From the NCBI RefSeq assembly GCF_004376175.1, contig NZ_SNUY01000046.1, positions 1 to 32,000 on the forward strand: DNA of 32,000 nucleotides. The letters are read 5' to 3'. The position numbers and the translations under genes are program-made. This DNA comes from Halalkalibacterium halodurans. Its GTDB lineage: Bacteria > Bacillota > Bacilli > Bacillales > Bacillaceae_D. The notes under the pieces are model-generated. The model did not search any database and was not told where the DNA came from. It was given only the letters and a program-made list of their open reading frames with translations. Shown piece by piece: positions 5,861 through 16,134 of the stretch (the first letter of the stretch is position 1; each line of letters begins with the position of its first letter).

Positions 5861-5915
5861 CTCGTTTAATCTTTCACAAAGAAAAGAGGCTGTCTATATA
5901 AGTTGAATTTATCTT

Positions 5916-6482
5916 TTACAATCGAATGCACAATCGATCAATAACTTTTCTAGGTGAGTCATTTAACTCACGAATAAAAGCTTGCACATTTCTTCGAATC
6001 TCTTTAACAGAGGAATAAAAAAGGTTATTAATTACGTCTGATTTGAGCCATTTCCATAACCCTTCAATGAGATTTAACTCAGGGCTGTAAGGTGGTAAAA
6101 AAACCAATTCTAAACGATGTTGGTGGTTACGCAAAAAAGGTTCAATCAGCTTCGCATGATGAATACGGGCATTATCTAACACCATGACAATCTTACCGGT
6201 CGGATAGTGTTTCAATACCTTTTGAAGAAAACGAAGAAACGCTTCGGCATCGTATCGTTCTTCTTCTACACAAAGCACATCTCCCGTTTCATAATTAAGT
6301 GTACCGATGAGTTTGACACCCTGGTGCTTTCCATAAGTCGGAATGATTCGTTGCTTGCCTTTTAAAAACCATGTGTATTGAAGAGCTTGGTAATCCCGAA
6401 TCATCGACTCATCTTGAAAGAGAAGATGGTCAATCTCCTCATTTAAGAGTTTTTTTATAGGCAGGGAACGTCTCTTCCACAA
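5916..6482 (-). CDS. IS630-family transposase, DDE catalytic part (orfB, no independent start)
   Basis: Contains LFQDES..., VLDNARIHH and PPYSPELNLIEGLW, the DD(34)E-type motifs of the IS630/Tc1 superfamily. It lies in the +1 frame relative to orfA and overlaps it across the A7 run (T7 on the + strand, 6450-6456). Confidence 0.85.
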   Translation of the reverse strand: MWKRRSLPIKKLLNEEIDHLLFQDESMIRDYQALQYTWFLKGKQRIIPTYGKHQGVKLIGTLNYETGDVLCVEEERYDAEAFLRFLQKVLKHYPTGKIVMVLDNARIHHAKLIEPFLRNHQHRLELVFLPPYSPELNLIEGLWKWLKSDVINNLFYSSVKEIRRNVQAFIRELNDSPRKVIDRLCIRL

Positions 6483-6960
6483 ACTCTTTTTGTTTCAACG
6501 GGTCAGCTTTTGCCAGCGTATAAGTCGGTTTGGTATAACTAAGGCCTAAATCGTGTAAAAGTCGAGAGACACCACGAAGAGTATACGGTTGGTTCCATTT
6601 TTTCTCGATAAATGAAGCAATGATCTTTAACGTCCAATTATACTTAGCTGGGAAGCCAACATCTACGGGAAGTTTGGTCGCAATCACTTGAGCCAATTCC
6701 TGTTCTTGTTCGGGTGTTAATTTGCGTGGCGCTCCAGGTGATTGTCCCATGGTTAAGCCATCTAGTCCCTTTTCTTCGTAGGCATTCACATAGTTATAGA
6801 TAGTTTTTTCGGAACGCCCAATCATGGTTGTGATTTCTTTTTTAGAATAGCCTTGTAAATAAAAGTAAATCGCTTGATAACGTTCATACATTCGTTTATC
6901 TTTGGTCGTTTTCATCGCTGTAAGCAAGGTTTCGATTTCATGTTGACGTGAATGGGTCAT
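6439..6960 (-). CDS. IS630-family transposase, N-terminal HTH part (orfA)
   Basis: 173 aa with winged-helix/HTH-like segments (KEITTMIGRSEKTIYNYV; RGVSRLLHDLGLSY). Ends just after an A7 run shared with orfB. Confidence 0.85.
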   Translation of the reverse strand: MTHSRQHEIETLLTAMKTTKDKRMYERYQAIYFYLQGYSKKEITTMIGRSEKTIYNYVNAYEEKGLDGLTMGQSPGAPRKLTPEQEQELAQVIATKLPVDVGFPAKYNWTLKIIASFIEKKWNQPYTLRGVSRLLHDLGLSYTKPTYTLAKADPLKQKEFVEETFPAYKKTLK

Positions 6961-7302
6961 CTCGTTCCTCTCCGTTCATTGGTAAGTGTTACCCTTATAT
7001 TTCAACAGAGAGTAATTGTAATCCTTTAATTCAACTTATATAGAAAGCGAGCTCCAACAAATTTCTTCACTTCATGACCCCCATCCCCTATATGTAATTT
7101 TCATCTAGTCTGACTAAAGTGACAATGAATCGATCGTAAACTTCCCTGAAAATAAACCTCCCCTCGTTTGCTATATCCTATTCTAACTTAGTTGAATTAC
7201 GATTCCAAGGTGAATGAACGATGAAACGATAAATATTAAATAAAATTGTTGGAAAACTTTTCGACTTTCGGGAAAATGACCCGTATTAATTATCTATAGA
7301 AG

Positions 7303-7687: not shown

Positions 7688-8131
7688 TTAATGCTTCATA
7701 TTTTGGTTTTGACCTTGCTTTTGGTTTTGACCGTTTTGACTGTCTTGTTGATCTTGTTGACCTTGTTCTCCATTATTTTGTCCGAACTCATTCATGGCTT
7801 CTTGAACGAGCGTGACGGCCTGGCTCATGGCGGCCCCTCCACCAAAAGCAGCAGTCACTCCAATCGCTTCCAGAATCTCTTCTTCTGAGCAATCTTGGTC
7901 CATGCATCCTTTTGTATGATAAATGATGCAATATTCATCTTGGGCAAAAACGCTAACACCTAGGGCGATCAACTGTTTCTGTTTTTGCGAAAGCTCCCCT
8001 TTTGCGAAGCAAGCTTCAGTAAACGCATTGTACTTTTCTGCAATCTCCGGCATCTTCTGTTGAAAGGTGCCAAGCCCTTCTTTATAATCCATTAGTGCCA
8101 TTTCCATCGGGTTCATTTGTTGTTGATCCAT
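7688..8131 (-). CDS. Carboxymuconolactone decarboxylase / AhpD-like family protein (yurZ-like) with a Q/N-rich tail
   Basis: CMD-type core ...[23 protein letters not shown]... (the E-x-C-x3-H pattern). ATG at 8131 ([13 protein letters not shown]) follows AAGGAGG (8139-8145). It occupies the same position as B. subtilis yurZ, between sufC and metQ. Confidence 0.8.
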
Positions 8132-8276
8132 CGTACAACCTCCTTTGCTTTTCAACGTCTTTAGTATGAGATCGAACTACATAATTCATTCGAATAATGA
8201 TTCAAAAGCATCCTTGCAAAACAAGAAAAAAACCTTTATCGTGAAAAAAGGTGAAAGAAATGATGGGAACAGCATA

Positions 8277-8313
8277 GGAAAAGACGACCGAAATGGGCGT
8301 TCGACCGTCTTTT
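8277..8313 (-). terminator. Intrinsic terminator of the AgrD-like peptide gene
   Basis: In the minus-strand RNA, GACGGUCGAA / UUCGGUCGUC forms a 10-bp stem with two G-U pairs, followed by UUUUCC. On the + strand the same positions are A-C mismatches, so the hairpin is specific to the minus strand. Confidence 0.75.
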
Positions 8314-8320
8314 CTTTACA

Positions 8321-8443
8321 TTATTTTTGTTTCTTTAAGCTATTAGGAATCTTTGGCGCATATATGAGTGGGCTAGACGCATTGACAAACGCTTTTGAGA
8401 TTCCAAGAGTCGCTTTTGAAATGACTTTAGCTGTTCTCTTCAT
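8321..8443 (-). CDS. agrD: AgrD-like autoinducing-peptide precursor (40 aa, below the ORF-track cutoff)
   Basis: Hand translation gives MKRTAKVISKATLGISKAFVNASSPLIYAPKIPNSLKKQK*. GGAGGTG lies 7 nt upstream of the ATG (8443), and a terminator lies 8 nt past the stop. The layout is a basic amphipathic N-terminal part, a short core, then a Pro-containing charged tail (KIPNSL). That Pro sits 10 residues after Ser23, matching the Cys-to-Pro spacing in S. aureus AgrD as I recall it. Confidence 0.6.
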   Translation of the reverse strand: MKRTAKVISKATLGISKAFVNASSPLIYAPKIPNSLKKQK

Positions 8444-8589
8444 TCGTTTCACCTCCCTCTATAAATTAAGATTTTCTTCAAAATGCTTTAAATATCTTAG
8501 AATTTCATTGCCTTTTGTTATCCTCTGATTAGATGAAACTTGCATTTCATGCATTTGTTGGAAATATGAATGCCATCCTGGTAGAGATC

Positions 8590-8842
8590 ATGCTTTCTCG
8601 CTTTAAAAATATGATCGCACCAGTGGATCTCCACATTTCTCTGGGGGTTACCCTCCCATTTCTCTCAGGGTCTTTGCCCGCACATTCCTTCGTCCAACCT
8701 AACCAGAGGTGGAGGCCTGTAAAAGCTCCTTTGCAGGGTCTATGCCCGAATGGTGAAATTAATCAACAGGCTTCTCCGTGCTTCGCTTTTCAAGGATCTG
8801 CACACCTAGATATTTAAAGATATTTGTGTTTCTTCAACATGA
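8590..8842 (-). ncRNA. Candidate IS110/IS1111-type bridge (seek) RNA in the 3' non-coding arm
   Basis: A roughly 250-nt non-coding stretch just 3' of the transposase stop, GC-richer by eye than its flanks. It holds several local hairpins (for example CCTGCAAAGGAGCTTTTACAGG) and an internal direct repeat AGAGAAATGGGAG / AGAGAAATGTGGAG. The + strand ORFs here have no RBS. Confidence 0.3.
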
Positions 8843-10126
8843 CTAAGCAGCATTCTGTATTTGTTGCAAGCGGATGTGTCCGAGACATTTTTCTCCATTG
8901 TAAGACACACGCTTGTGTCCTAAGCTAAATAACACGCGAATCAACTTACAGCACAACGCGATCATGGATTGTTGTTTTTTCAACGGATTCTCGGAGCGTG
9001 TCGTTAAGTACTCATGCATTTGCTTGAACTCCCGATTCTTCGCCACCATGGGGCGTATCGCTGCATACAACAGGGATCTCAGTTTGGGGCGTCCCCGCTT
9101 GGTAATGCGGGTTTGACCTCTGAACTTGCCTGAGGTATTTTCTCGCAGATTGAATCCTGCCAGTTTTTGAACCTGTCGTGGGTGCGTGTAGTTGGACAGA
9201 TCGCCAACCTCAGCCAGGAAGCCAGCCACTGTCACTAGTCCCACGCCTGGAATACTCATCATGTAGGGCACAGCTGGAATCTGCTCTAGTAATGCTTCTA
9301 CATCTTGCATGAGCTGTTCCATTTGTCCACACAAACACTGGTATTGTTCCATCAAGCTTTGGAGTTCTTGCCTAGCCATTGACAGACCTTCCGTAAGACC
9401 AACAGAACGCTTGGCGGCCGCCACAAGCGCATTGGCTCGCTTGATCCCTATGGCTCGTTTCACTTCTTGCTTCCAGTGTCTTAGGATCTTTTCCGCACCC
9501 AGATTGATGATTTCTTGCGGGAGAGGAAACGCCTCTAGCGTCATCAGTGCAGCCTTTCCTTCCCAAATCTTAAACACCTCATGAAATTCAGGGAAAAAGC
9601 GATCCAGCCAGTTGAGAATACGCCCCCGAACGCGTTGTAAGTCTTCTTGTAGACGGTCTCGCAGGTTCATCCCATTACGTAATTCAGCATATATGCCAGT
9701 GGGGACTTGGGGTTCAGAGTACCGTCCGTCTTTGACCAATTGAGCGATGACTCGGGCATCCTTTACATCATTTTTGGTGGGCGAATTGTCATCTAATTCC
9801 TTGCTCTTCTTCACATGCATCGGATTGACGACAACATACTTAATCCCTTCATGGCGCAGAAACTGGGCAAATGCCATCCAGTAATGCCCTGTGGGCTCAA
9901 AACCTACAATGACATCCGGTTTGGCATGTTCTCGCATGAGGCTCTTCATCCACAAACGAAATCGTTGAAATCCGGCTCTGCTGTTTTCAATGTTCATTGG
10001 CTTGCCAAATTCAATTCCTCTGGCATCTTGAGCTCTAGCCACATGGTTCTCCTTGGCGATATCCACGCCAATAACGAGTGTTGATTCGGTGATTTGCTTG
10101 ATTTTGTGATTTTGGTTATACTTCAT
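8843..10126 (-). CDS. IS110-family (DEDD) transposase/recombinase
   Basis: 427 aa. N-terminal RuvC-like DEDD motifs are VIGVDIAKENH, GFEPTGHYW and NDVKDARVIA. The C-terminal Transposase_20-like region reads IPGVGLVTVAGFLAEVGD...SGKFRGQTRITKRGRPKLR. AAGGAGG precedes the ATG. Confidence 0.93.
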   Translation of the reverse strand: MKYNQNHKIKQITESTLVIGVDIAKENHVARAQDARGIEFGKPMNIENSRAGFQRFRLWMKSLMREHAKPDVIVGFEPTGHYWMAFAQFLRHEGIKYVVVNPMHVKKSKELDDNSPTKNDVKDARVIAQLVKDGRYSEPQVPTGIYAELRNGMNLRDRLQEDLQRVRGRILNWLDRFFPEFHEVFKIWEGKAALMTLEAFPLPQEIINLGAEKILRHWKQEVKRAIGIKRANALVAAAKRSVGLTEGLSMARQELQSLMEQYQCLCGQMEQLMQDVEALLEQIPAVPYMMSIPGVGLVTVAGFLAEVGDLSNYTHPRQVQKLAGFNLRENTSGKFRGQTRITKRGRPKLRSLLYAAIRPMVAKNREFKQMHEYLTTRSENPLKKQQSMIALCCKLIRVLFSLGHKRVSYNGEKCLGHIRLQQIQNAA

Positions 10127-10222
10127 CTTGAGTCCTCCTTCGTACTAATTAAGGATCAGTAGCTACTGATACCTCGTATCGTACAGGAGGGCTCTTTCTG
10201 TTTCAAACCTCAAATTCTTTCA

Positions 10223-10801
10223 TTACAGGAATGCTCCTTTCAAGATGAACCGATTGAGCTGCCTCGTGACCTTTAGGCCAATAGGCGTAAGGAGCACCCC
10301 TTGTAATAGAACCCCGAGAACGAGGCCTTGAGCCGACATAAACATTGCAAGAATGATAAAAAGAACGATGAGGATGTAAGCTATCCGTTTCTTCCGCCGC
10401 TCCCAATGCTCTGTATGTACTACTTGATGAGCCTCATAGTATGGAGCGTATTTCCAAATCAACAGTCCCCCGCTAATTCCATAAAGAATCCAAGCATAGT
10501 TGTTTGCAAACGGAACCCAGAAAATTGCCGTGATGAACAGAACGGACAGCAAAGTACAGCCAATAGAATGATCAAGGTGAGCACCTCCCGTCAACACCCT
10601 CATGAACGTGAAGGATAGTGCGATTTGGAGAAACAGCCAAATCTCTCCGTGGAGAAGGCCAACCGCTATGACGAGCAATAAAGTAAAGAGATAGTGGAGA
10701 ATGATCGTGAATCCAAACGTTAGAACCTCAACCGATTCTGTTTCTTCTGCATTCAATGCTTTCACTTGATGTGCCAACGTTAAAGCAAGACGTTCAAGCA
10801 T
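10223..10801 (-). CDS. agrB: AgrB-family accessory gene regulator protein B (AgrD-processing membrane peptidase)
   Basis: A polytopic membrane protein of about 192 aa with the motif MRVLTGGAHLDHSIGCTLLS. His and Cys are 7 residues apart, as for the catalytic H77/C84 of S. aureus AgrB. ATG at 10801 follows a G-rich SD. Confidence 0.85.
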   Translation of the reverse strand: MLERLALTLAHQVKALNAEETESVEVLTFGFTIILHYLFTLLLVIAVGLLHGEIWLFLQIALSFTFMRVLTGGAHLDHSIGCTLLSVLFITAIFWVPFANNYAWILYGISGGLLIWKYAPYYEAHQVVHTEHWERRKKRIAYILIVLFIILAMFMSAQGLVLGVLLQGVLLTPIGLKVTRQLNRFILKGAFL

Positions 10802-10812
10802 CAAACCCCCCC

Positions 10813-12087
10813 CTATTTTCTTATAAAGCGGATGCTACATTCTAGCGGGCGAATTTGTGAATCAACTTTCGCGTTATTTTGCTGAAAGTACATAAGATCA
10901 TCGACAATCTTAAGTGTTGTCACATCTTGCTCTGAAAGCTCTAGGTTGCTCGATATGCGATACTCTAACGTACTATCTGTCATGTTAATCTGCAGCCTGA
11001 CAAACAAATCGGACATACCTGTTCGGTACAATGCAACGAACACCTCGTCCAATATCCGACTTAAATAACGAATTTGCCACAAAGACGTTGGGCGAACGTG
11101 CTCAAGAGTCGCTGACACTTTAAACTCGACACCTAATAACCGTGATAGCTTTTTCTTATTGATGAGAAAGGCATACATCACTTCATCTTCAGATTTGAAC
11201 AAATGATAGCTCTCATCTTTCACACTAAAACTAGGTAGTTTTTTTATCGCGACTTTCTTTTCTACATACTCACGAATTAGTGGCGCCGACTCTTTTTCAC
11301 AAAGCTTTAAAATCGCATTGGAATGGATGCTGTATTCATTTTGAATCGTTTCGACAATACTTGATAGTTGCTGCTCTTGATCTAGATAAAATTTCTTTGC
11401 CTCCATCATCCGCTTCGCTTGAAAGATGGAGTGAAGAACGTAGTACGTAGATAATACAAGGAAAAGCAATACGATAATGAAGAGAACAAATAAATGTTTG
11501 TTTAACACTGCACTTGTCGTCATCACATAAGATGCGAAGCAAATGAACAGAAACATCATAAACGCACTTACAAATATAACGCGTTTTTCCTTCGTCGAAA
11601 GCAAATCTCCTTCAATATGTCCGCGAAATTCGTTAAGCTGATAGCTCCCTCGGTAAATGCCGTATGAGGCTGTTGTTACAAGGAGGAACGTACCGCTTTG
11701 AATCAGCAACGTTACATCGGTATAAGACAGCAAGACGTCCCAATAACTGTAAGAGGACATGGCGGTAATCGCTTCGACAATGATTAATTGGGTAAAGATA
11801 TAAAATCCATATCCACTGCTCGTCACGACTAACGACTCTAATGAATTAAATCGAAATAACCATCTGACAAGGATAAACAAAACGGTCATTTGAATGAAAA
11901 TCACAATCGGCAAGTGCAAATGGGGGACCATTCGTAACACAAAAATCGATAAAAGACTCAATAACGTACCAATCGCTACAATTGATAAACGATAGCGGCG
12001 GAACGTATAACCAAATAATAGAACGGGAAACGATAAGAGGGCGCTCCATTCCAAAATGGATATTAGGAAGGTTAAAATGTGATACAT
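10813..12087 (-). CDS. AgrC-like 7-TM receptor protein with a degenerate (pseudo)kinase domain
   Basis: 424 aa with about 7 predicted TM helices in residues 1-215. A DHp-like helix follows, retaining one His (EYSIHSNAILKL versus AgrC RHDYVNIL). A C-terminal GHKL-like fold reads LSRILDEVFVAL where AgrC has ILDNAIEA (Asn replaced by Glu), and no GxGxG G-box is present. GGGGAG SD lies 8 nt before the ATG. Confidence 0.7.
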   Translation of the reverse strand: MYHILTFLISILEWSALLSFPVLLFGYTFRRYRLSIVAIGTLLSLLSIFVLRMVPHLHLPIVIFIQMTVLFILVRWLFRFNSLESLVVTSSGYGFYIFTQLIIVEAITAMSSYSYWDVLLSYTDVTLLIQSGTFLLVTTASYGIYRGSYQLNEFRGHIEGDLLSTKEKRVIFVSAFMMFLFICFASYVMTTSAVLNKHLFVLFIIVLLFLVLSTYYVLHSIFQAKRMMEAKKFYLDQEQQLSSIVETIQNEYSIHSNAILKLCEKESAPLIREYVEKKVAIKKLPSFSVKDESYHLFKSEDEVMYAFLINKKKLSRLLGVEFKVSATLEHVRPTSLWQIRYLSRILDEVFVALYRTGMSDLFVRLQINMTDSTLEYRISSNLELSEQDVTTLKIVDDLMYFQQNNAKVDSQIRPLECSIRFIRK

Positions 12088-12117
12088 ACGTGATTCTCCC
12101 CTATCATTCTGAAAGAT

Positions 12118-12915
12118 TTAAATCGTCATGTTTTTCCCTTTTGGAATGGTTAATGTGACAACCACACCTCTTTTTGGATGGTTCTTGATCTCAAGCGTCC
12201 CCTCCATGGCTTCTATAATGGTTTTGCATATGGGCAATCCTAAGCCTGTTCCCTCATCCTTCGTCGTAAAAAAAGGATAAAAAATGTTCTCTAATTGATC
12301 CTCAGCAATTCCTGGTCCATCGTCATGAATGACAAGAATCACTGCGTCCTGATCATTGGAAAGCTTGATGGAAATGGTTCCTTCTTCCTCTATTGCTTCA
12401 ACAGCGTTTTTAATAAGATTAATAAGTACTTGCTCAAAGCGGGTTACATTACCTGAAATATATAAGCCTTCTGCCAAATCTGTGCGAAACCGGATCTCTT
12501 TCTTGTCTTGCTTCATTTTCTGAATGAGAATAACCTTTTCAATGCTACGCTTGACATCAATCAATGACAAGTTTTCCTCGTCAAGATGGGCTTTGGCGAA
12601 CGTTAATAACTCTTGAATGAGCGCCTCCATACGAATAGCTTCATCTTTAATGATAGACGTATATTGGGCAATCGTGGGATCAGAGCGAATCGTTTCATTT
12701 TGCTCAAGGTATTGAGTAAAACCGATAATCGAGGTTAGAGGATTTCTTATTTCATGAGCAAAAAATGCCGCCATTTTTCCGATAGCTGCATGATAATTCT
12801 CATTTCCATCCTTATAATCATTTCCGATCTCACTTAGACGCTCTTGATATGATTTCTTTTTTTCTATTGGCTTTGTCTTTCTTTGCAGCCAGCTTTTAAA
12901 AAATGGACGGTTCAT
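12118..12915 (-). CDS. Soluble, sensor-less histidine kinase (HisKA + HATPase_c; sporulation-kinase-like H-box)
   Basis: H-box FAHEIRNPLTSIIGF, N-box LINLIKNAVEAI, G1 DDGPGI and G2 GTGLGLPICK are all intact. Only about 50 residues precede the H-box, with no TM segment. The preferred start MNRPFF at 12915 has GGGAG 7 nt upstream; the longer TTG start at 13002 has no SD. Confidence 0.85.
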   Translation of the reverse strand: MNRPFFKSWLQRKTKPIEKKKSYQERLSEIGNDYKDGNENYHAAIGKMAAFFAHEIRNPLTSIIGFTQYLEQNETIRSDPTIAQYTSIIKDEAIRMEALIQELLTFAKAHLDEENLSLIDVKRSIEKVILIQKMKQDKKEIRFRTDLAEGLYISGNVTRFEQVLINLIKNAVEAIEEEGTISIKLSNDQDAVILVIHDDGPGIAEDQLENIFYPFFTTKDEGTGLGLPICKTIIEAMEGTLEIKNHPKRGVVVTLTIPKGKNMTI

Positions 12916-13224
12916 GATGATAACACTCCCACTAATCGCACGAAAAAATTCTGCCCTTTCGATATTGTTACAATTTCGACGCTTTATTGTAAGTTCCTTC
13001 AAATATTTTCATTCTTTTCTGACATAATTTTTCCCAGTTTTCGAATATTCCTGAATCGAACTGAGCGCCTCCCATAACGTAAGAAAAACCCCTGCTTGAG
13101 AAGTAACAGAGATAAATAAATCACGGTGTACTACAAAAAGGTGATGACTTATTACTGCCTCTCGGAAAGTTGCCTCGCTTTTGAGGCCATGCACCAGACA
13201 GCTACGCCTCCCTTTCTTCATTTA

Positions 13225-13260
13225 CAAAGAAAAGACCAGCGATTATCATCACTGGTCCTT
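13225..13260 (-). terminator. Intrinsic terminator after metQ
   Basis: In the minus-strand RNA, GACCAGUGAU-GAUA-AUCGCUGGUC forms a 10-bp stem with one G-U pair, followed by UUUUCUUUG. Confidence 0.8.
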
Positions 13261-13265
13261 ATCGA

Positions 13266-14123
13266 TTACCCCATCGGAATGACCGCGCCATTGTACTGCT
13301 CTTCGATAAACTGACGAACTTCTTCAGATTGAAGAACTTCAACAAGTACTTGGAACTCAGGGCGATCTTGATCCTCTGCACGAACAACAATTAAGTTTGG
13401 CTGTAAGACATCTTCTGACTCAAAAGCAATTCCATATTGCTCGATGTCGACGCCACCCTCTAATGCATAGTTCGTATTGATCGCCACAGCATCTCCTTCA
13501 CCATTTTCAAAAGATGGCGCAAGGAAACGTGCCTCTACTTGCTGTGAGCCAAATACGAGATTTTTCGGGTTGGAAGAGATATCATCAATTGTCGCAAGCT
13601 CCCCTTCTTCTACGTCAAGCTCAATCAGTCCAGCTCGTTCAAAGATCGGAAGGATTCTTCCATGGTCGCTAATCGAGTCACTGAAAATAATCTCTGCTCC
13701 TTCTGGAAGCTCTTCAAGGCTGCTATACTCTTTTGAATAAATTCCAATCGGTTCGGCATGAACTTCACCGAGGCTTACGAAATCATAGTCATATTCTTCA
13801 ATTTGCTGAGCCAAATACCCTGGCGTTTGGAAATAGTTCACATCAATATCTCCATCTCTTAACGCTGTATTAGGTAAAATGTAATCAGTAAATGTTTCAA
13901 TTTCGAGCGTAATCCCCCGTTCTTCAAGTAGAGGTGCCGCAAATTCAAGCACTTCAGTATGCGGAACAGCAGAAGCCCCGATTTTAATCGTTACAGGCTC
14001 ATCCACTGATGCTTCTCCTTCTGCTTCTTCAGCCCCTTGCGTGTCCTCTTCACTAGTTCCACCGCAAGCAACAAGTGATAACGAAAGCGTCGCCGCGCCA
14101 ATAATGCTTAAAAACTTTTTCAT
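13266..14123 (-). CDS. metQ: Methionine ABC transporter substrate-binding lipoprotein MetQ
   Basis: Lipobox LSLVAC-GG and an NlpA/MetQ-like sequence. It is the last gene of the metNPQ cluster behind an S-box. Confidence 0.9.
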   Translation of the reverse strand: MKKFLSIIGAATLSLSLVACGGTSEEDTQGAEEAEGEASVDEPVTIKIGASAVPHTEVLEFAAPLLEERGITLEIETFTDYILPNTALRDGDIDVNYFQTPGYLAQQIEEYDYDFVSLGEVHAEPIGIYSKEYSSLEELPEGAEIIFSDSISDHGRILPIFERAGLIELDVEEGELATIDDISSNPKNLVFGSQQVEARFLAPSFENGEGDAVAINTNYALEGGVDIEQYGIAFESEDVLQPNLIVVRAEDQDRPEFQVLVEVLQSEEVRQFIEEQYNGAVIPMG

Positions 14124-15971: not shown

Positions 15972-16134
15972 AAAAAAACCTTTCCGCCATGAGCAGAAAG
16001 GAATGTTTTACGTCTTCCCTTCTCTCATCTCTCAAAGCATCGCTTTGCAGGAATTAGCACCTTTTCCAAGCGATTTGCTGCTTGGCGGTTGCTGGGCTTC
16101 ATCGGGCCAGTCCCTCCACCTCTCATGATAAGAG
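15972..16134 (-). promoter_or_regulatory. SAM-I (S-box) riboswitch with expression-platform terminator
   Basis: The minus strand reads CTCTTATCATGAGAGGTGGAGGGACTGGCCCGATGAAGCCCAGCAACCGCC...AAGGTGCTAATTCCTGCAAAGC...GAGAGATGAGAGA, which is the canonical S-box core. A terminator follows: CCTTTCTGC-TCAT-GGCGGAAAGG then TTTTTTT (15972-16001). Confidence 0.93.

What the first reader, a model, noticed from the sequence alone, without database searches (positions are those of the whole stretch)
8277..13002. Atypical agr-like peptide-signalling cassette with a split receptor and no response regulator
Seen in sequence:
- A tightly packed minus-strand operon (gaps of 30 nt and 11 nt) encodes three proteins:
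  1. A sensor-less soluble histidine kinase with an intact HEIRNPLT H-box and intact N and G boxes.
  2. A 7-TM AgrC-like protein whose ATP-binding motifs are degenerate.
  3. An AgrB with its catalytic His and Cys.
- An IS110 insertion follows, and then a 40-aa AgrD-like gene with its own SD and terminator.

Established knowledge: canonical agr loci run agrB-agrD-agrC-agrA and signal through a LytTR regulator. HEIRNPL-type H-boxes are typical of the Bacillus sporulation kinases that feed Spo0F.

Inference: this may be a peptide quorum-sensing module whose membrane sensor has handed catalysis to a separate kinase. Its output would go to an orphan regulator, plausibly the sporulation phosphorelay, instead of to AgrA.

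The whole block lies between a yurZ-like gene and metQ. As I recall the B. subtilis map, those two are neighbours, so this is probably a horizontally acquired insertion. It also looks more AT-rich by eye; I did not compute this.
Basis: partly seen in the sequence, partly recalled or inferred. Interest (0 to 1): 0.85.

Follow-up and report, generated by a model that had tools for sequence, protein, structure and literature searches.

The report
Agr-like signalling cassette with split receptor
This Halalkalibacterium halodurans locus is a conserved four-gene peptide quorum-sensing cassette in which the usual membrane receptor kinase (AgrC) has lost all its catalytic residues and is always encoded next to a small soluble histidine kinase, with no response regulator nearby. 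This wiring of the agr system does not seem to have been described before.

Summary
The window comes from Halalkalibacterium (Bacillus) halodurans. The minus strand encodes four genes in order:
- a 265-aa soluble HisKA/HATPase_c kinase (KIN);
- a 424-aa 7-TM protein (P424, BH3476);
- AgrB;
- a 40-aa AgrD.

A strain-specific IS110 element sits exactly in the agrD ribosome-binding site. Other strains, including C-125, have the uninterrupted operon.

P424 has no Pfam or NCBIfam hit, but it is a full-length AgrC homologue (hhalign 99.8 %, E 5e-28; top Foldseek hit S. aureus AgrC). It has lost the phospho-His, both N-box Asn residues and the whole G1-F-G2 ATP lid in all 18 non-redundant loci compared.

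KIN→P424 is syntenic in every complete locus examined, across about 8 Bacillaceae genera with unrelated flanks. AgrB-AgrD follow in most of them, and three loci have KIN-P424 alone. No response regulator or LytTR gene is linked to the cassette in any locus. All four extra KIN-family members whose neighbourhoods I looked up sit in the cassette.

Best reading: P424 is a pseudokinase receptor for the autoinducing peptide (AIP) that controls the co-encoded kinase, which signals to an unlinked regulator. Spo0F is plausible but untested.

I rate it a new variant of a known kind, interest about 0.7.

The parts
12118..12915 (-). KIN: 265-aa soluble, sensor-less HisKA/HATPase_c histidine kinase. It has a polybasic-aromatic N-terminal tag, a roughly 30-aa variable linker, then the DHp dimerisation/phosphoacceptor hairpin and the catalytic ATP-binding (CA) domain. 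The longest ORF extends to a TTG at 13002.
   Evidence: - Pfam HisKA and HATPase_c.
- In 38 family members the H-box His55, N-box N167/N171, G1 D199xGxG, the F box and G2 G223xGxGL are all invariant.
- AF2: residues 1-40 have pLDDT below 50, DHp helices span 42-112, the CA domain spans 118-260.
- Other strains call the 265-aa start.
10813..12087 (-). P424 (BH3476): 7-TM AgrC-homologous pseudokinase. It comprises a sensor module, a DHp-like hairpin and a CA-like alpha/beta domain that has no ATP lid.
   Evidence: - No Pfam or NCBIfam hit.
- hhalign against SPOB_a/HATPase_c_5 kinases: 99.8 %, E 5e-28 over 384 columns.
- AF2 pLDDT 79.7, with 7 TM helices plus a DHp hairpin plus an alpha/beta sandwich.
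- Top Foldseek hits are S. aureus AgrC 6e95/6e52 at E 7.6e-6.
- Catalytic columns are lost in 18 of 18 loci.
10223..10801 (-). AgrB peptidase, 192 aa here. The wild-type protein is 197 aa; the last 8 residues (GETNEENS) are replaced by AFL because of the IS insertion.
   Evidence: - PF04647 4.5e-28.
- Catalytic H and C invariant.
- C-terminus compared with strain C-125.
8457..10233 (-). IS110-family insertion sequence (transposase 8843-10126). It sits in the agrD Shine-Dalgarno sequence, which lies inside the agrB 3' end. It is strain-specific and not part of the signalling system.
   Evidence: - NF033542 5.7e-71.
- Boundaries come from alignment to 3 IS-free H. halodurans loci.
- Junction sequences, with GGAG on both sides.
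8321..8443 (-). AgrD precursor, 40 aa: MKRTAKVISKATLGISKAFVNASSPLIYAPKIPNSLKKQK. It has no Cys and an invariant A-S-S-P. The predicted product is a Ser-lactone AIP.
   Evidence: - TIGR04223 28.3 bits, cut-off 19.
- Orthologues lie directly after agrB in 17 loci, with the conserved core FVxASSPxx[HYN]xPK[IV]PxSL[KR].
8279..8312 (-). Intrinsic-terminator-like hairpin plus T-run that ends the cassette.
   Evidence: Sequence read. The same hairpin is reported on the opposite strand.
12916..13230 (-). Upstream non-coding region holding the cassette's own, unmapped promoter. It is bounded by the metQ terminator at 13231-13260.
   Evidence: - Terminator scan.
- Across genera only the RBS TAGGAGTGT and a recurrent TGTAGAAT extended -10-like element are shared.
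- No consistent Spo0A box or LytTR-type repeat.

Best explanation
This is a self-contained agr-type autoinducing-peptide cassette (KIN-P424-agrB-agrD) with a split receptor.

Proposed mechanism, step by step:
1. AgrB processes AgrD into a cyclic peptide. Because the precursor has no Cys and an invariant SSP, the product is probably a five-residue Ser-lactone such as cyclo(S-S-P-L-I) with a short tail (inferred).
2. The peptide is sensed by the 7-TM module of P424. P424 descends from AgrC, keeps the sensor, the DHp-like hairpin and the CA-like fold, and cannot bind ATP or be phosphorylated at the canonical His (shown at sequence and model level).
3. P424 therefore transmits the signal by protein-protein contact to the co-encoded soluble kinase KIN. 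KIN has no sensor domain of its own, only a polybasic-aromatic N-terminal tag that could hold it at the membrane or at P424 (inferred). Whether the peptide switches KIN on or off is open.
4. KIN~P then phosphorylates a response regulator encoded elsewhere. The sporulation phosphorelay protein Spo0F is the most plausible candidate in these endospore-forming Bacillaceae (inferred; my estimate is about 0.25-0.3).

In the strain sequenced here, an IS110 insertion in the agrD ribosome-binding site has separated agrD from its operon and clipped the AgrB tail. Peptide production may be impaired while the receiver pair stays intact.
For: P424 is a catalytically dead AgrC homologue:
- AgrB, AgrD and KIN domain assignments.
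- Full-length AgrC homology of P424: hhalign 99.8 %, E 5e-28. The P424 profile reaches bona fide SPOB_a+HATPase_c_5 kinases at E 2.6e-9 and weaker. AgrC is the top Foldseek hit.
- The phospho-His column is N/K/E/R/A/D/Q, the N-box DN is DD/DE in 17 of 18 loci (ND in one; no Asn at that position in any), and the G1-F-G2 segment is deleted.
- The protein is full-length and conserved in about 20 clusters at 50 % identity, so it is not a decaying pseudogene.

KIN is intact and has no sensor:
- All catalytic motifs are invariant in 38 sequences.
- Residues 1-40 are disordered and basic.

KIN and P424 behave as a unit:
- KIN is immediately upstream of P424 in 16 of 17 genome loci, in all 4 extra KIN members checked, and in the 8 H. 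halodurans loci fetched. Flanking genes are unrelated between genera.
- The KIN family is sharply bounded: 47-61 % identity inside, at most 39 % outside.
- Pairwise identities of KIN and P424 correlate at r = 0.80.
- Three loci keep KIN-P424 without agrBD.

No linked regulator:
- Only one REC protein was found among 298 ORFs from the window and 17 loci, and it belongs to a separate two-component system 4.5 kb away.
- Neither Response_reg nor LytTR appears among the 25 families listed (of 209 matched) for the 147 flanking ORFs; that list is truncated, so rare hits are not excluded.

Hints on the output:
- The nearest kinases outside the family are PAS-HisKA kinases of Bacillaceae with no adjacent DNA-binding regulator. 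Sources annotate some of them as sporulation kinases.
- KinD is the best Firmicute NCBIfam model.
- In clostridia, AgrD peptides promote sporulation through unknown receptors (PMC11210211).
Against: - There is no direct evidence of a KIN-P424 contact.
- More remote pseudo-AgrC relatives exist without any linked kinase: pseudoAgrC-AgrB-AgrD-AgrA in L033 and pseudoAgrC-AgrB-AgrD in L034. Pseudo-AgrC can evidently work through other partners, and loss of catalysis may predate recruitment of KIN.
- The H-box type is shared with AtoS and ZraS, so it does not point specifically to Spo0F.
- No conserved Spo0A box or other operator lies upstream of the cassette.
- The helical amphipathicity of the KIN N-terminal tag is not above shuffled controls, z = 0.74.
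- In one Niallia assembly KIN and P424 lie on different contigs.
Confidence: 0.6

Rival explanations
1. P424 acts as a Spo0B-like phosphotransfer or phosphatase module. Its DHp-like bundle would use the conserved second histidine (H255, five residues after the lost phospho-His). KIN's catalytic domain would phosphorylate it in trans, or it would shuttle phosphate. On this reading the pair reconstitutes a kinase rather than forming a receptor/effector couple.
For: - H255 is conserved in 17 of 18 loci.
- The architecture, a DHp hairpin plus a CA-like domain without an ATP site, is the Spo0B architecture. Bona fide AgrC-type relatives carry the SPOB_a Pfam domain.
Against: - H255 is Arg in one locus, and Arg or Lys in two database members.
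- KIN keeps its own invariant phospho-acceptor His55 and a complete DHp.
- His-to-His transfer needs an intervening receiver domain, and none is linked.
- In true AgrC-type kinases the same second His is conserved but is not the phospho-site.
Confidence: 0.08
2. KIN and P424 are not a signalling pair. P424 is a relic or a kinase-independent receptor, for example one that sequesters a regulator as its KIN-less relatives must do. KIN would be an independent cytoplasmic kinase that merely shares the operon.
For: - Remote pseudo-AgrC clades occur with AgrA, or with nothing, and without KIN.
- TM-only AgrC-like proteins pair with a LytTR-only protein.
- There is no physical interaction evidence.
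Against: - Co-occurrence and gene order are strict in every complete locus, across about 8 genera with unrelated flanks. The gaps are 26-40 nt or the genes overlap.
- KIN has no input domain of its own.
- KIN-P424 persists as a pair when agrBD is absent.
- Divergence of the two proteins is correlated, r = 0.80.
Confidence: 0.12
3. The split receptor works as proposed, but the output is not the sporulation phosphorelay. KIN would phosphorylate another unlinked regulator, for example an orphan LytTR, NarL or OmpR-type regulator controlling secondary metabolism, competence or biofilm.
For: - No regulator is linked, so any orphan regulator is possible.
- The best NCBIfam models for the KIN core are AtoS and ZraS, not sporulation kinases.
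- There is no conserved Spo0A box upstream.
- AIPs regulate antibiotic production in Paenibacillus (PMC12180512).
Against: - The closest non-family relatives are PAS-HisKA kinases of Bacillaceae with no adjacent DNA-binding regulator. Some are annotated as sporulation kinases.
- All named host genera belong to Bacillaceae, which I take from memory to be endospore formers.
- HisKA/HPK4-type kinases are not the usual partners of LytTR regulators (established knowledge, from memory).
Confidence: 0.3

Closest known systems
Canonical agrBDCA quorum sensing (Staphylococcus aureus, Listeria monocytogenes, Lactiplantibacillus lamBDCA)
   Same: - AgrB peptidase with the catalytic His and Cys.
- A short AgrD precursor with an amphipathic N-terminal part, a 5-residue ring region and a PKxP tail. 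A-S-S-P-L-I-Y-A-P-K-I-P lines up with my recalled Listeria AgrD segment A-C-F-M-F-V-Y-E-P-K-S-P (only the CFMFV ring is cited, PMC4916163).
- A 7-TM AgrC-homologous sensor.
   Different: - Gene order is kinase, C-like, B, D.
- The AgrC homologue has lost the phospho-His, the N-box and the G1/F/G2 motifs.
- A separate HisKA-class (not HPK10) soluble kinase is added.
- There is no AgrA/LytTR regulator.
- AgrD has Ser instead of Cys, and its ring region is unusually conserved across genera.
Clostridial agrBD systems with unlinked or unknown receptors (C. perfringens AgrBD with VirS/VirR; C. difficile agr1)
   Same: - agrBD is uncoupled from agrCA.
- The peptide signal feeds regulators encoded elsewhere.
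- There is a link to sporulation in spore-formers (PMC7492741, PMC11210211).
   Different: Here a dedicated receptor-like protein and a kinase are encoded in the same operon. Only the regulator is missing. VirS is itself an active kinase.
Pseudo-histidine-kinase regulators of active kinases (RetS-GacS in Pseudomonas, DivL-CckA in Caulobacter)
   Same: A kinase-fold protein that does not act through its own phosphotransfer controls a bona fide histidine kinase by direct contact (DivL: PMC4211667; RetS-GacS from memory).
   Different: - Those are not peptide receptors, are not agr-related, and are usually not co-operonic with their target.
- Contact between P424 and KIN is not yet shown.
Sensor-less or accessory-dependent kinases (chemoreceptor-CheW-CheA, BceS-BceAB, UhpC-UhpB, NtrB-PII, KinB-KapB)
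   Same: The kinase lacks its own stimulus-binding domain and depends on a separate protein for input (established knowledge, from memory).
   Different: The input protein here is itself a degenerate histidine kinase of another subfamily.
Bacillus sporulation phosphorelay kinases KinA-E
   Same: - Orphan HisKA kinases.
- HE(I/V)RNPLT H-box followed by GF.Q (from memory).
- KinD is the best Firmicute NCBIfam model, 152.6 bits.
   Different: - KIN has no PAS or TM sensor.
- It falls far below every equivalog cut-off.
- Phosphotransfer to Spo0F is untested.

Membership tests
agr-type AIP quorum-sensing system | AgrB membrane peptidase with catalytic His and Cys | tested here: met
   PF04647 4.5e-28. 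GG.H-x6-C is invariant in 19 sequences.
agr-type AIP quorum-sensing system | AgrD precursor peptide next to agrB | tested here: met
   TIGR04223 28.3 bits, above the 19-bit cut-off. In IS-free strains agrD overlaps the agrB 3' end by 17 nt. Orthologues are conserved. The nucleophile must be Ser, because there is no Cys.
agr-type AIP quorum-sensing system | AgrC receptor that is an active HPK10 histidine kinase | tested here: not met
   A homologue is present, but the phospho-His, N-box Asn, G1, F and G2 motifs are lost in 18 of 18 loci. There are no SPOB_a or HATPase_c_5 hits.
agr-type AIP quorum-sensing system | Co-encoded AgrA (REC + LytTR) response regulator | tested here: not met
   No REC or LytTR protein in the window or linked to the cassette in more than 20 loci.
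agr-type AIP quorum-sensing system | Secreted cyclic (thio)lactone peptide and autoinduction of the operon | not testable with these tools
   Needs mass spectrometry of supernatants and reporter assays. No conserved operator was found upstream.
AgrC / HPK10 receptor family (for P424) | Homologous polytopic sensor + DHp + CA fold | tested here: met
   hhalign 99.8 % over 384 columns. AF2 model and Foldseek: 6e95/6e52 at E 7.6e-6, and 4bxi with TM-score 0.62 normalised to the target chain.
AgrC / HPK10 receptor family (for P424) | Catalytic competence (RHD H-box, DN N-box, G-boxes) | tested here: not met
   The segment between beta3 and the next helix is 8 residues in the model, against 28 in KIN.
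HisKA-class histidine kinase (for KIN) | H, N, G1, F and G2 boxes intact | tested here: met
   All invariant in 38 sequences. Pfam HisKA and HATPase_c.
HisKA-class histidine kinase (for KIN) | Own sensor domain and adjacent cognate response regulator | tested here: not met
   Only about 40 disordered residues precede the DHp. No linked regulator.
Sporulation phosphorelay kinases (KinA-E) | Phosphotransfer to Spo0F / effect on sporulation | not testable with these tools
   Indirect evidence only: orphan status, H-box type, and KinD model at 152.6 bits against a 775-bit cut-off.
IS110 family insertion sequence | DEDD transposase (PF01548 + PF02371), presence/absence polymorphism | tested here: met
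   The 1777-bp insertion is absent from the 8 other H. halodurans loci fetched, judging by gene tables for all 8 and alignment for 3.

The most novel reading that the evidence does not exclude
A previously unrecognised way of wiring agr signalling. The AgrC sensor has become a pseudokinase adaptor that plugs the autoinducing peptide directly into a soluble phosphorelay-type kinase. This would give Bacillaceae a dedicated quorum-sensing input to Spo0F/Spo0A. It may be one instance of a wider, undescribed radiation of catalytically dead or TM-only AgrC receptors. Those receptors couple to different outputs: KIN, AgrA, or a LytTR-only protein.
Probability: 0.3. Interest if true: 0.85.

Novelty: new variant of a known kind. 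Interest (0 to 1): 0.7.

Why it matters
Agr is the textbook Gram-positive peptide quorum-sensing system, and its receptor is always described as an active AgrC kinase feeding AgrA.

A conserved cassette in which AgrC is a pseudokinase partnered with a different class of kinase would show three things. The AIP sensor module is transferable between outputs. Bacterial pseudokinases can be ligand-gated receptors. And a concrete, genetically linked route would exist from a cyclic peptide to an orphan kinase.

That last point bears on an open question in spore-formers. [quoted passage not shown] H. halodurans C-125 is cultivable and carries the intact operon. The strain in this window is a natural IS110 insertion variant for comparison.

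Tried and rejected
- Pfam and NCBIfam on P424: no hit. A PDB sequence-profile search gave only noise, E at least 0.7. Homology had to come from hhalign, an exhaustive profile search and Foldseek.
There is therefore no interface prediction.
- Upstream regulatory motif: no consistent Spo0A box (TGNCGAA) and no shared operator in 15 upstream regions. Only the RBS and an extended -10-like TGTAGAAT recur.
- Amphipathic-helix test of the KIN N-terminal tag: not above shuffles, z = 0.74. I call it only a polybasic-aromatic tag.
- Mobile-element carriage: no tblastn hit for P424 in 72,556 plasmids or 50,697 phage records.
- Rfam: nothing in the cassette or the IS; only the SAM riboswitch upstream of metN.
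- Literature:
  - No paper holds BH3475, BH3476 or BH3477.
  - None combines agrB/agrD with halodurans.
  - None links the phrase 'accessory gene regulator' with any of the host genera.
  - The AgrC + pseudokinase papers concern DivL or other topics.
  - Wuster & Babu 2008 (PMC2223712) is not held, so I could not check whether they noted this locus.
- Rejected: that the IS110 is an integral part of the locus.
- Rejected: that the HEIRNPLT H-box is specific evidence for Spo0F.

Full report
**What is there.**
- The 424-aa ORF at 10813-12087(-) is 100 % identical to BH3476 of Halalkalibacterium (Bacillus) halodurans.
- The minus strand between metQ (13266-14123) and a CMD/YurZ-like gene (7688-8155) encodes, in transcription order, the following:
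  - **Kinase (KIN).** HisKA and HATPase_c. The longest ORF is 12118-13002; the start used in other strains is the ATG at 12915, giving 265 aa.
  - **P424.** Starts 30 nt after the kinase stop. It has no Pfam or NCBIfam hit.
  - **AgrB.** Starts 11 nt after the P424 stop. PF04647 4.5e-28.
  - **IS110-family transposase.** 8843-10126.
  - **AgrD.** 40 aa, 8321-8443. TIGR04223 28.3 bits against a cut-off of 19. It has a GGAGG Shine-Dalgarno sequence and a terminator-like hairpin.
- A terminator after metQ (13231-13260) separates the cassette from metNPQ.
- GC content is 38.5-40.7 % across the KIN, P424 and agrB stretch (about 10.5-13 kb), against 42-47 % in the flanks.

**The IS110 is a strain-specific accident.**
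- Eight other H. halodurans loci were fetched, including the C-125 chromosome BA000004.3. All carry KIN-P424-AgrB(197 aa)-AgrD(40 aa)-CMD-YuzK-sufCDSUB with no IS.
- In those strains agrD overlaps the agrB 3' end by 17 nt.
- Alignment places the 1777-bp insertion at window 8457-10233, inside the agrD Shine-Dalgarno sequence (AAAGGAG^GTG), with GGAG at both junctions.
- The insertion replaces the last 8 AgrB residues (GETNEENS) with AFL. It leaves agrD with an SD but 1.8 kb from its operon.
- C-125 instead carries an IS200/605 transposase gene between metQ and KIN.
- This window also carries an IS630-family element at 5897-7040 that the three strains aligned lack.

**P424 is a catalytically dead AgrC.**
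- *Family size.* Word-based search finds only 15 relatives at 35-43 % identity, all unannotated. An exhaustive profile search of 1.8 billion representatives finds 20 clusters with E below 1e-30.
- *Remote hits.* Below that are more remote 400-450-aa proteins. Those with E from about 1e-9 upward carry SPOB_a + HATPase_c_5, the AgrC/HPK10 architecture. One is read as a single 656-aa protein that also carries an AgrB domain.
- *Profile-profile comparison.* P424 against 15 such kinases gives 99.8 % probability and E 5e-28 over 384 columns. The match covers the TM module, the DHp and the CA domain.
- *AF2 model.* pLDDT is 79.7. The model has seven TM helices. TM7 continues into a long helix (197-264), followed by a return helix and an alpha/beta sandwich.
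- *Fold search.* The best PDB matches are the S. aureus AgrC cytoplasmic domain (6e95/6e52, E 7.6e-6). DesK, PhoQ-CA and AgrC-CA 4bxi follow.
- *H-box.* Real AgrC-type kinases have RHDFxNH. P424 proteins have N/K/E/R/A/D/Q at the phospho-His column in 18 of 18 loci.
- *N-box.* GNLLDNA has become xxI(L/I)D(D/E)x. No Asn occupies either N-box Asn position in any locus.
- *ATP lid.* The roughly 20-27-column G1-F-G2 segment is deleted. In the model only 8 residues link beta3 to the next helix, against 28 in KIN.
- *Not a pseudogene.* The protein is full-length everywhere. It keeps strongly conserved cytoplasmic motifs (EAKKFYLDQEQQ, DELLYAFLINKRKLA).

**KIN is an intact kinase with no sensor.**
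- In 38 family members the H-box (AFFAHEIRNPLT), the N, G1, F and G2 boxes are invariant.
- Before the DHp there is only a conserved polybasic-aromatic tag (MNxxFxKKWFxKK, net +4.9 in the first 20 residues) and a variable charged linker.
- AF2 gives pLDDT below 50 for residues 1-40.
- The tag's helical moment is not above shuffles.
- The family is sharply bounded. About 42 clusters of 248-284 aa share 47-61 % identity with the window protein. The next hits drop to 39 % or less.
- Those next hits are mostly PAS-HisKA kinases, many from Bacillaceae, and some carry source annotations such as 'sporulation kinase'.
- Two of them lie between yneK and citB with no adjacent DNA-binding regulator.

**The cassette is a conserved unit without a regulator.**
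- *Genome scan.* A scan of one genome per species found 17 loci in Halalkalibacter, Salipaludibacillus, Anaerobacillus, Caldalkalibacillus, Niallia, Lederbergia and unnamed Bacillaceae.
- *KIN next to P424.* KIN lies immediately upstream of P424 in 16 of 17. The exception is Niallia sp. 01092. There KIN lies at a contig end and P424 is on another contig, behind fabZ; sister strains have the normal order.
- *AgrB-AgrD.* They follow directly in 13 of 17. Three loci have KIN-P424 only, with unrelated genes right after P424. One contig is truncated.
- *Extra KIN members.* Four further KIN-family members chosen from other taxa (Lederbergia ruris, Desertibacillus, Bacillus sp. FSL K6-3431, Niallia) all sit in the same cassette.
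- *Flanks.* Flanking genes are unrelated between genera.
- *Receiver domains.* Among 298 ORFs of the window and 17 loci, a receiver-domain search found one protein. It belongs to a classical two-component system 4.5 kb away on the other strand.
- *Pfam on flanks.* Scans of 147 flanking ORFs do not show Response_reg or LytTR among the 25 families listed, of 209 matched. Because that list is truncated, rare hits are not excluded.
- *Co-divergence.* Pairwise identities of KIN and P424 correlate at r = 0.80.
- *Mobile elements.* No copy is found on plasmids or phages.

**The peptide.**
- The AgrD orthologues share FVxASSPxx[HYN]xPK[IV]PxSL[KR], contain no Cys, and have an invariant A-S-S-P.
- AIPs usually have a five-residue ring closed on a central Cys that is sometimes replaced by Ser. 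The Listeria AIP is cyclo-CFMFV (PMC4916163).
- From memory, the surrounding Listeria AgrD sequence is A-C-F-M-F-V-Y-E-P-K-S-P. Lined up with A-S-S-P-L-I-Y-A-P-K-I-P, it predicts a Ser-lactone ring S-S-P-L-I. The register S-P-L-I-Y cannot be excluded.
- Ring positions 4-5 vary between genera (LI, LV, LA, AL, GL, FV, LF, VI). This is compatible with specificity groups.

**How it most likely works.**
- *Shown.* There is a complete AIP-production pair, an AgrC-derived receptor that cannot catalyse, an intact kinase with no input domain, obligatory co-occurrence of the last two, and no linked regulator.
- *Inferred.* P424 binds the peptide and controls KIN by contact. Analogies are RetS-GacS, DivL-CckA, and anti-kinases such as Sda and KipI. 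KIN then phosphorylates an unlinked regulator.
- *Spo0F.* It is attractive because the hosts are spore-forming Bacillaceae, KIN is an orphan, its nearest relatives look like phosphorelay kinases, and KinD is the best Firmicute model. None of this is specific: AtoS and ZraS score higher, and no Spo0A box is conserved upstream.
- *Estimates.* I put the split-receptor mechanism at about 0.6 and the Spo0F output at about 0.25-0.3.

**Caveat from relatives.**
- A more remote clade (P0030-P0034) has also lost the His, the N-box and the lid.
- One member sits in pseudoAgrC-AgrB-AgrD-AgrA (L033) and another in pseudoAgrC-AgrB-AgrD alone (L034).
- About 50 clusters of 220-aa proteins match only the TM module. 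One of them is followed by AgrB, AgrD and a LytTR-only protein.
- Loss of catalysis in AgrC-like receptors is therefore broader than this cassette, and a kinase partner is not the only solution.

**Novelty.**
- Searches of 8 million papers found nothing on BH3475-3477, nothing combining agrB/agrD with halodurans, no paper holding the phrase 'accessory gene regulator' with any host genus, and nothing on an AgrC pseudokinase.
- The 2008 agr survey by Wuster & Babu could not be read.
- I classify the finding as a new variant of a known kind.

Noticed in passing
L033:6001-8662; L034:6001-7939: A second, more remote clade of AgrC-like proteins (403-415 aa, no Pfam hit) has also lost the phospho-His, the N-box and the G1-G2 lid.
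- One is encoded as pseudoAgrC-AgrB-AgrD-AgrA (REC+LytTR) in a phage-like context.
- Another is pseudoAgrC-AgrB-AgrD with no kinase or regulator.
- It is unclear what phosphorylates AgrA in the first case.
   Followed up: partly
L032:372-2221: About 50 clusters of roughly 220-aa proteins match only the 7-TM module of the P424 profile. One is in a cassette of TM-only protein, AgrB, 42-aa peptide, then a 173-aa LytTR protein without a receiver domain. This may be a phosphorylation-independent agr variant.
   Followed up: partly
L001:7159-9260; L004:7147-9263; L009:7190-9257: KIN-P424 'solo' pairs with no agrB or agrD downstream (Halalkalibacter urbisdiaboli, a Bacillaceae MAG, Bacillus sp. FJAT-50079). 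They may be eavesdropping receivers, or the agrBD genes may lie elsewhere in those genomes.
   Followed up: partly
window 8457-10233: - The IS110-family element is inserted exactly in the agrD Shine-Dalgarno sequence, with GGAG at both junctions.
- It has 107 bp before and 386 bp after the transposase ORF.
- There is no Rfam hit, so no bridge-RNA family was detected.
- Whether agrD is still transcribed by read-through is unknown.
   Followed up: partly
window 5897-7040: IS630-family element with two overlapping ORFs (6439-6960 and 5916-6482, probably a frameshifted transposase), inserted between yuzK and sufC. It is absent from the three H. halodurans strains aligned.
   Followed up: partly
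L026:4256-4726 (C-125; corresponds to window position ~13227/13228): Strain C-125 carries an IS200/IS605 Y1 transposase gene between the metQ terminator and KIN, where this window has none. Three different IS elements therefore populate this 8-kb region across strains.
   Followed up: no
window 16022-16134 (-): SAM (S-box) riboswitch, 86.1 bits, upstream of the metNPQ methionine ABC transporter operon. This is ordinary.
   Followed up: yes
L014:7277-9260 and L037:5001-5867: In Niallia sp. 01092 the KIN gene is at the end of one contig, and P424-AgrB-AgrD lies on another contig behind fabZ. Sister strains have KIN, a 275-nt gap, then P424. This is either a rearrangement or an assembly break.
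   Followed up: partly
window 12916-13230 and upstream regions of L001, L004, L006, L008, L016: A TGTAGAAT (extended -10-like) element recurs about 100 nt upstream of KIN in several genera, and the RBS TAGGAGTGT is conserved. No operator-like repeat was seen.
   Followed up: partly
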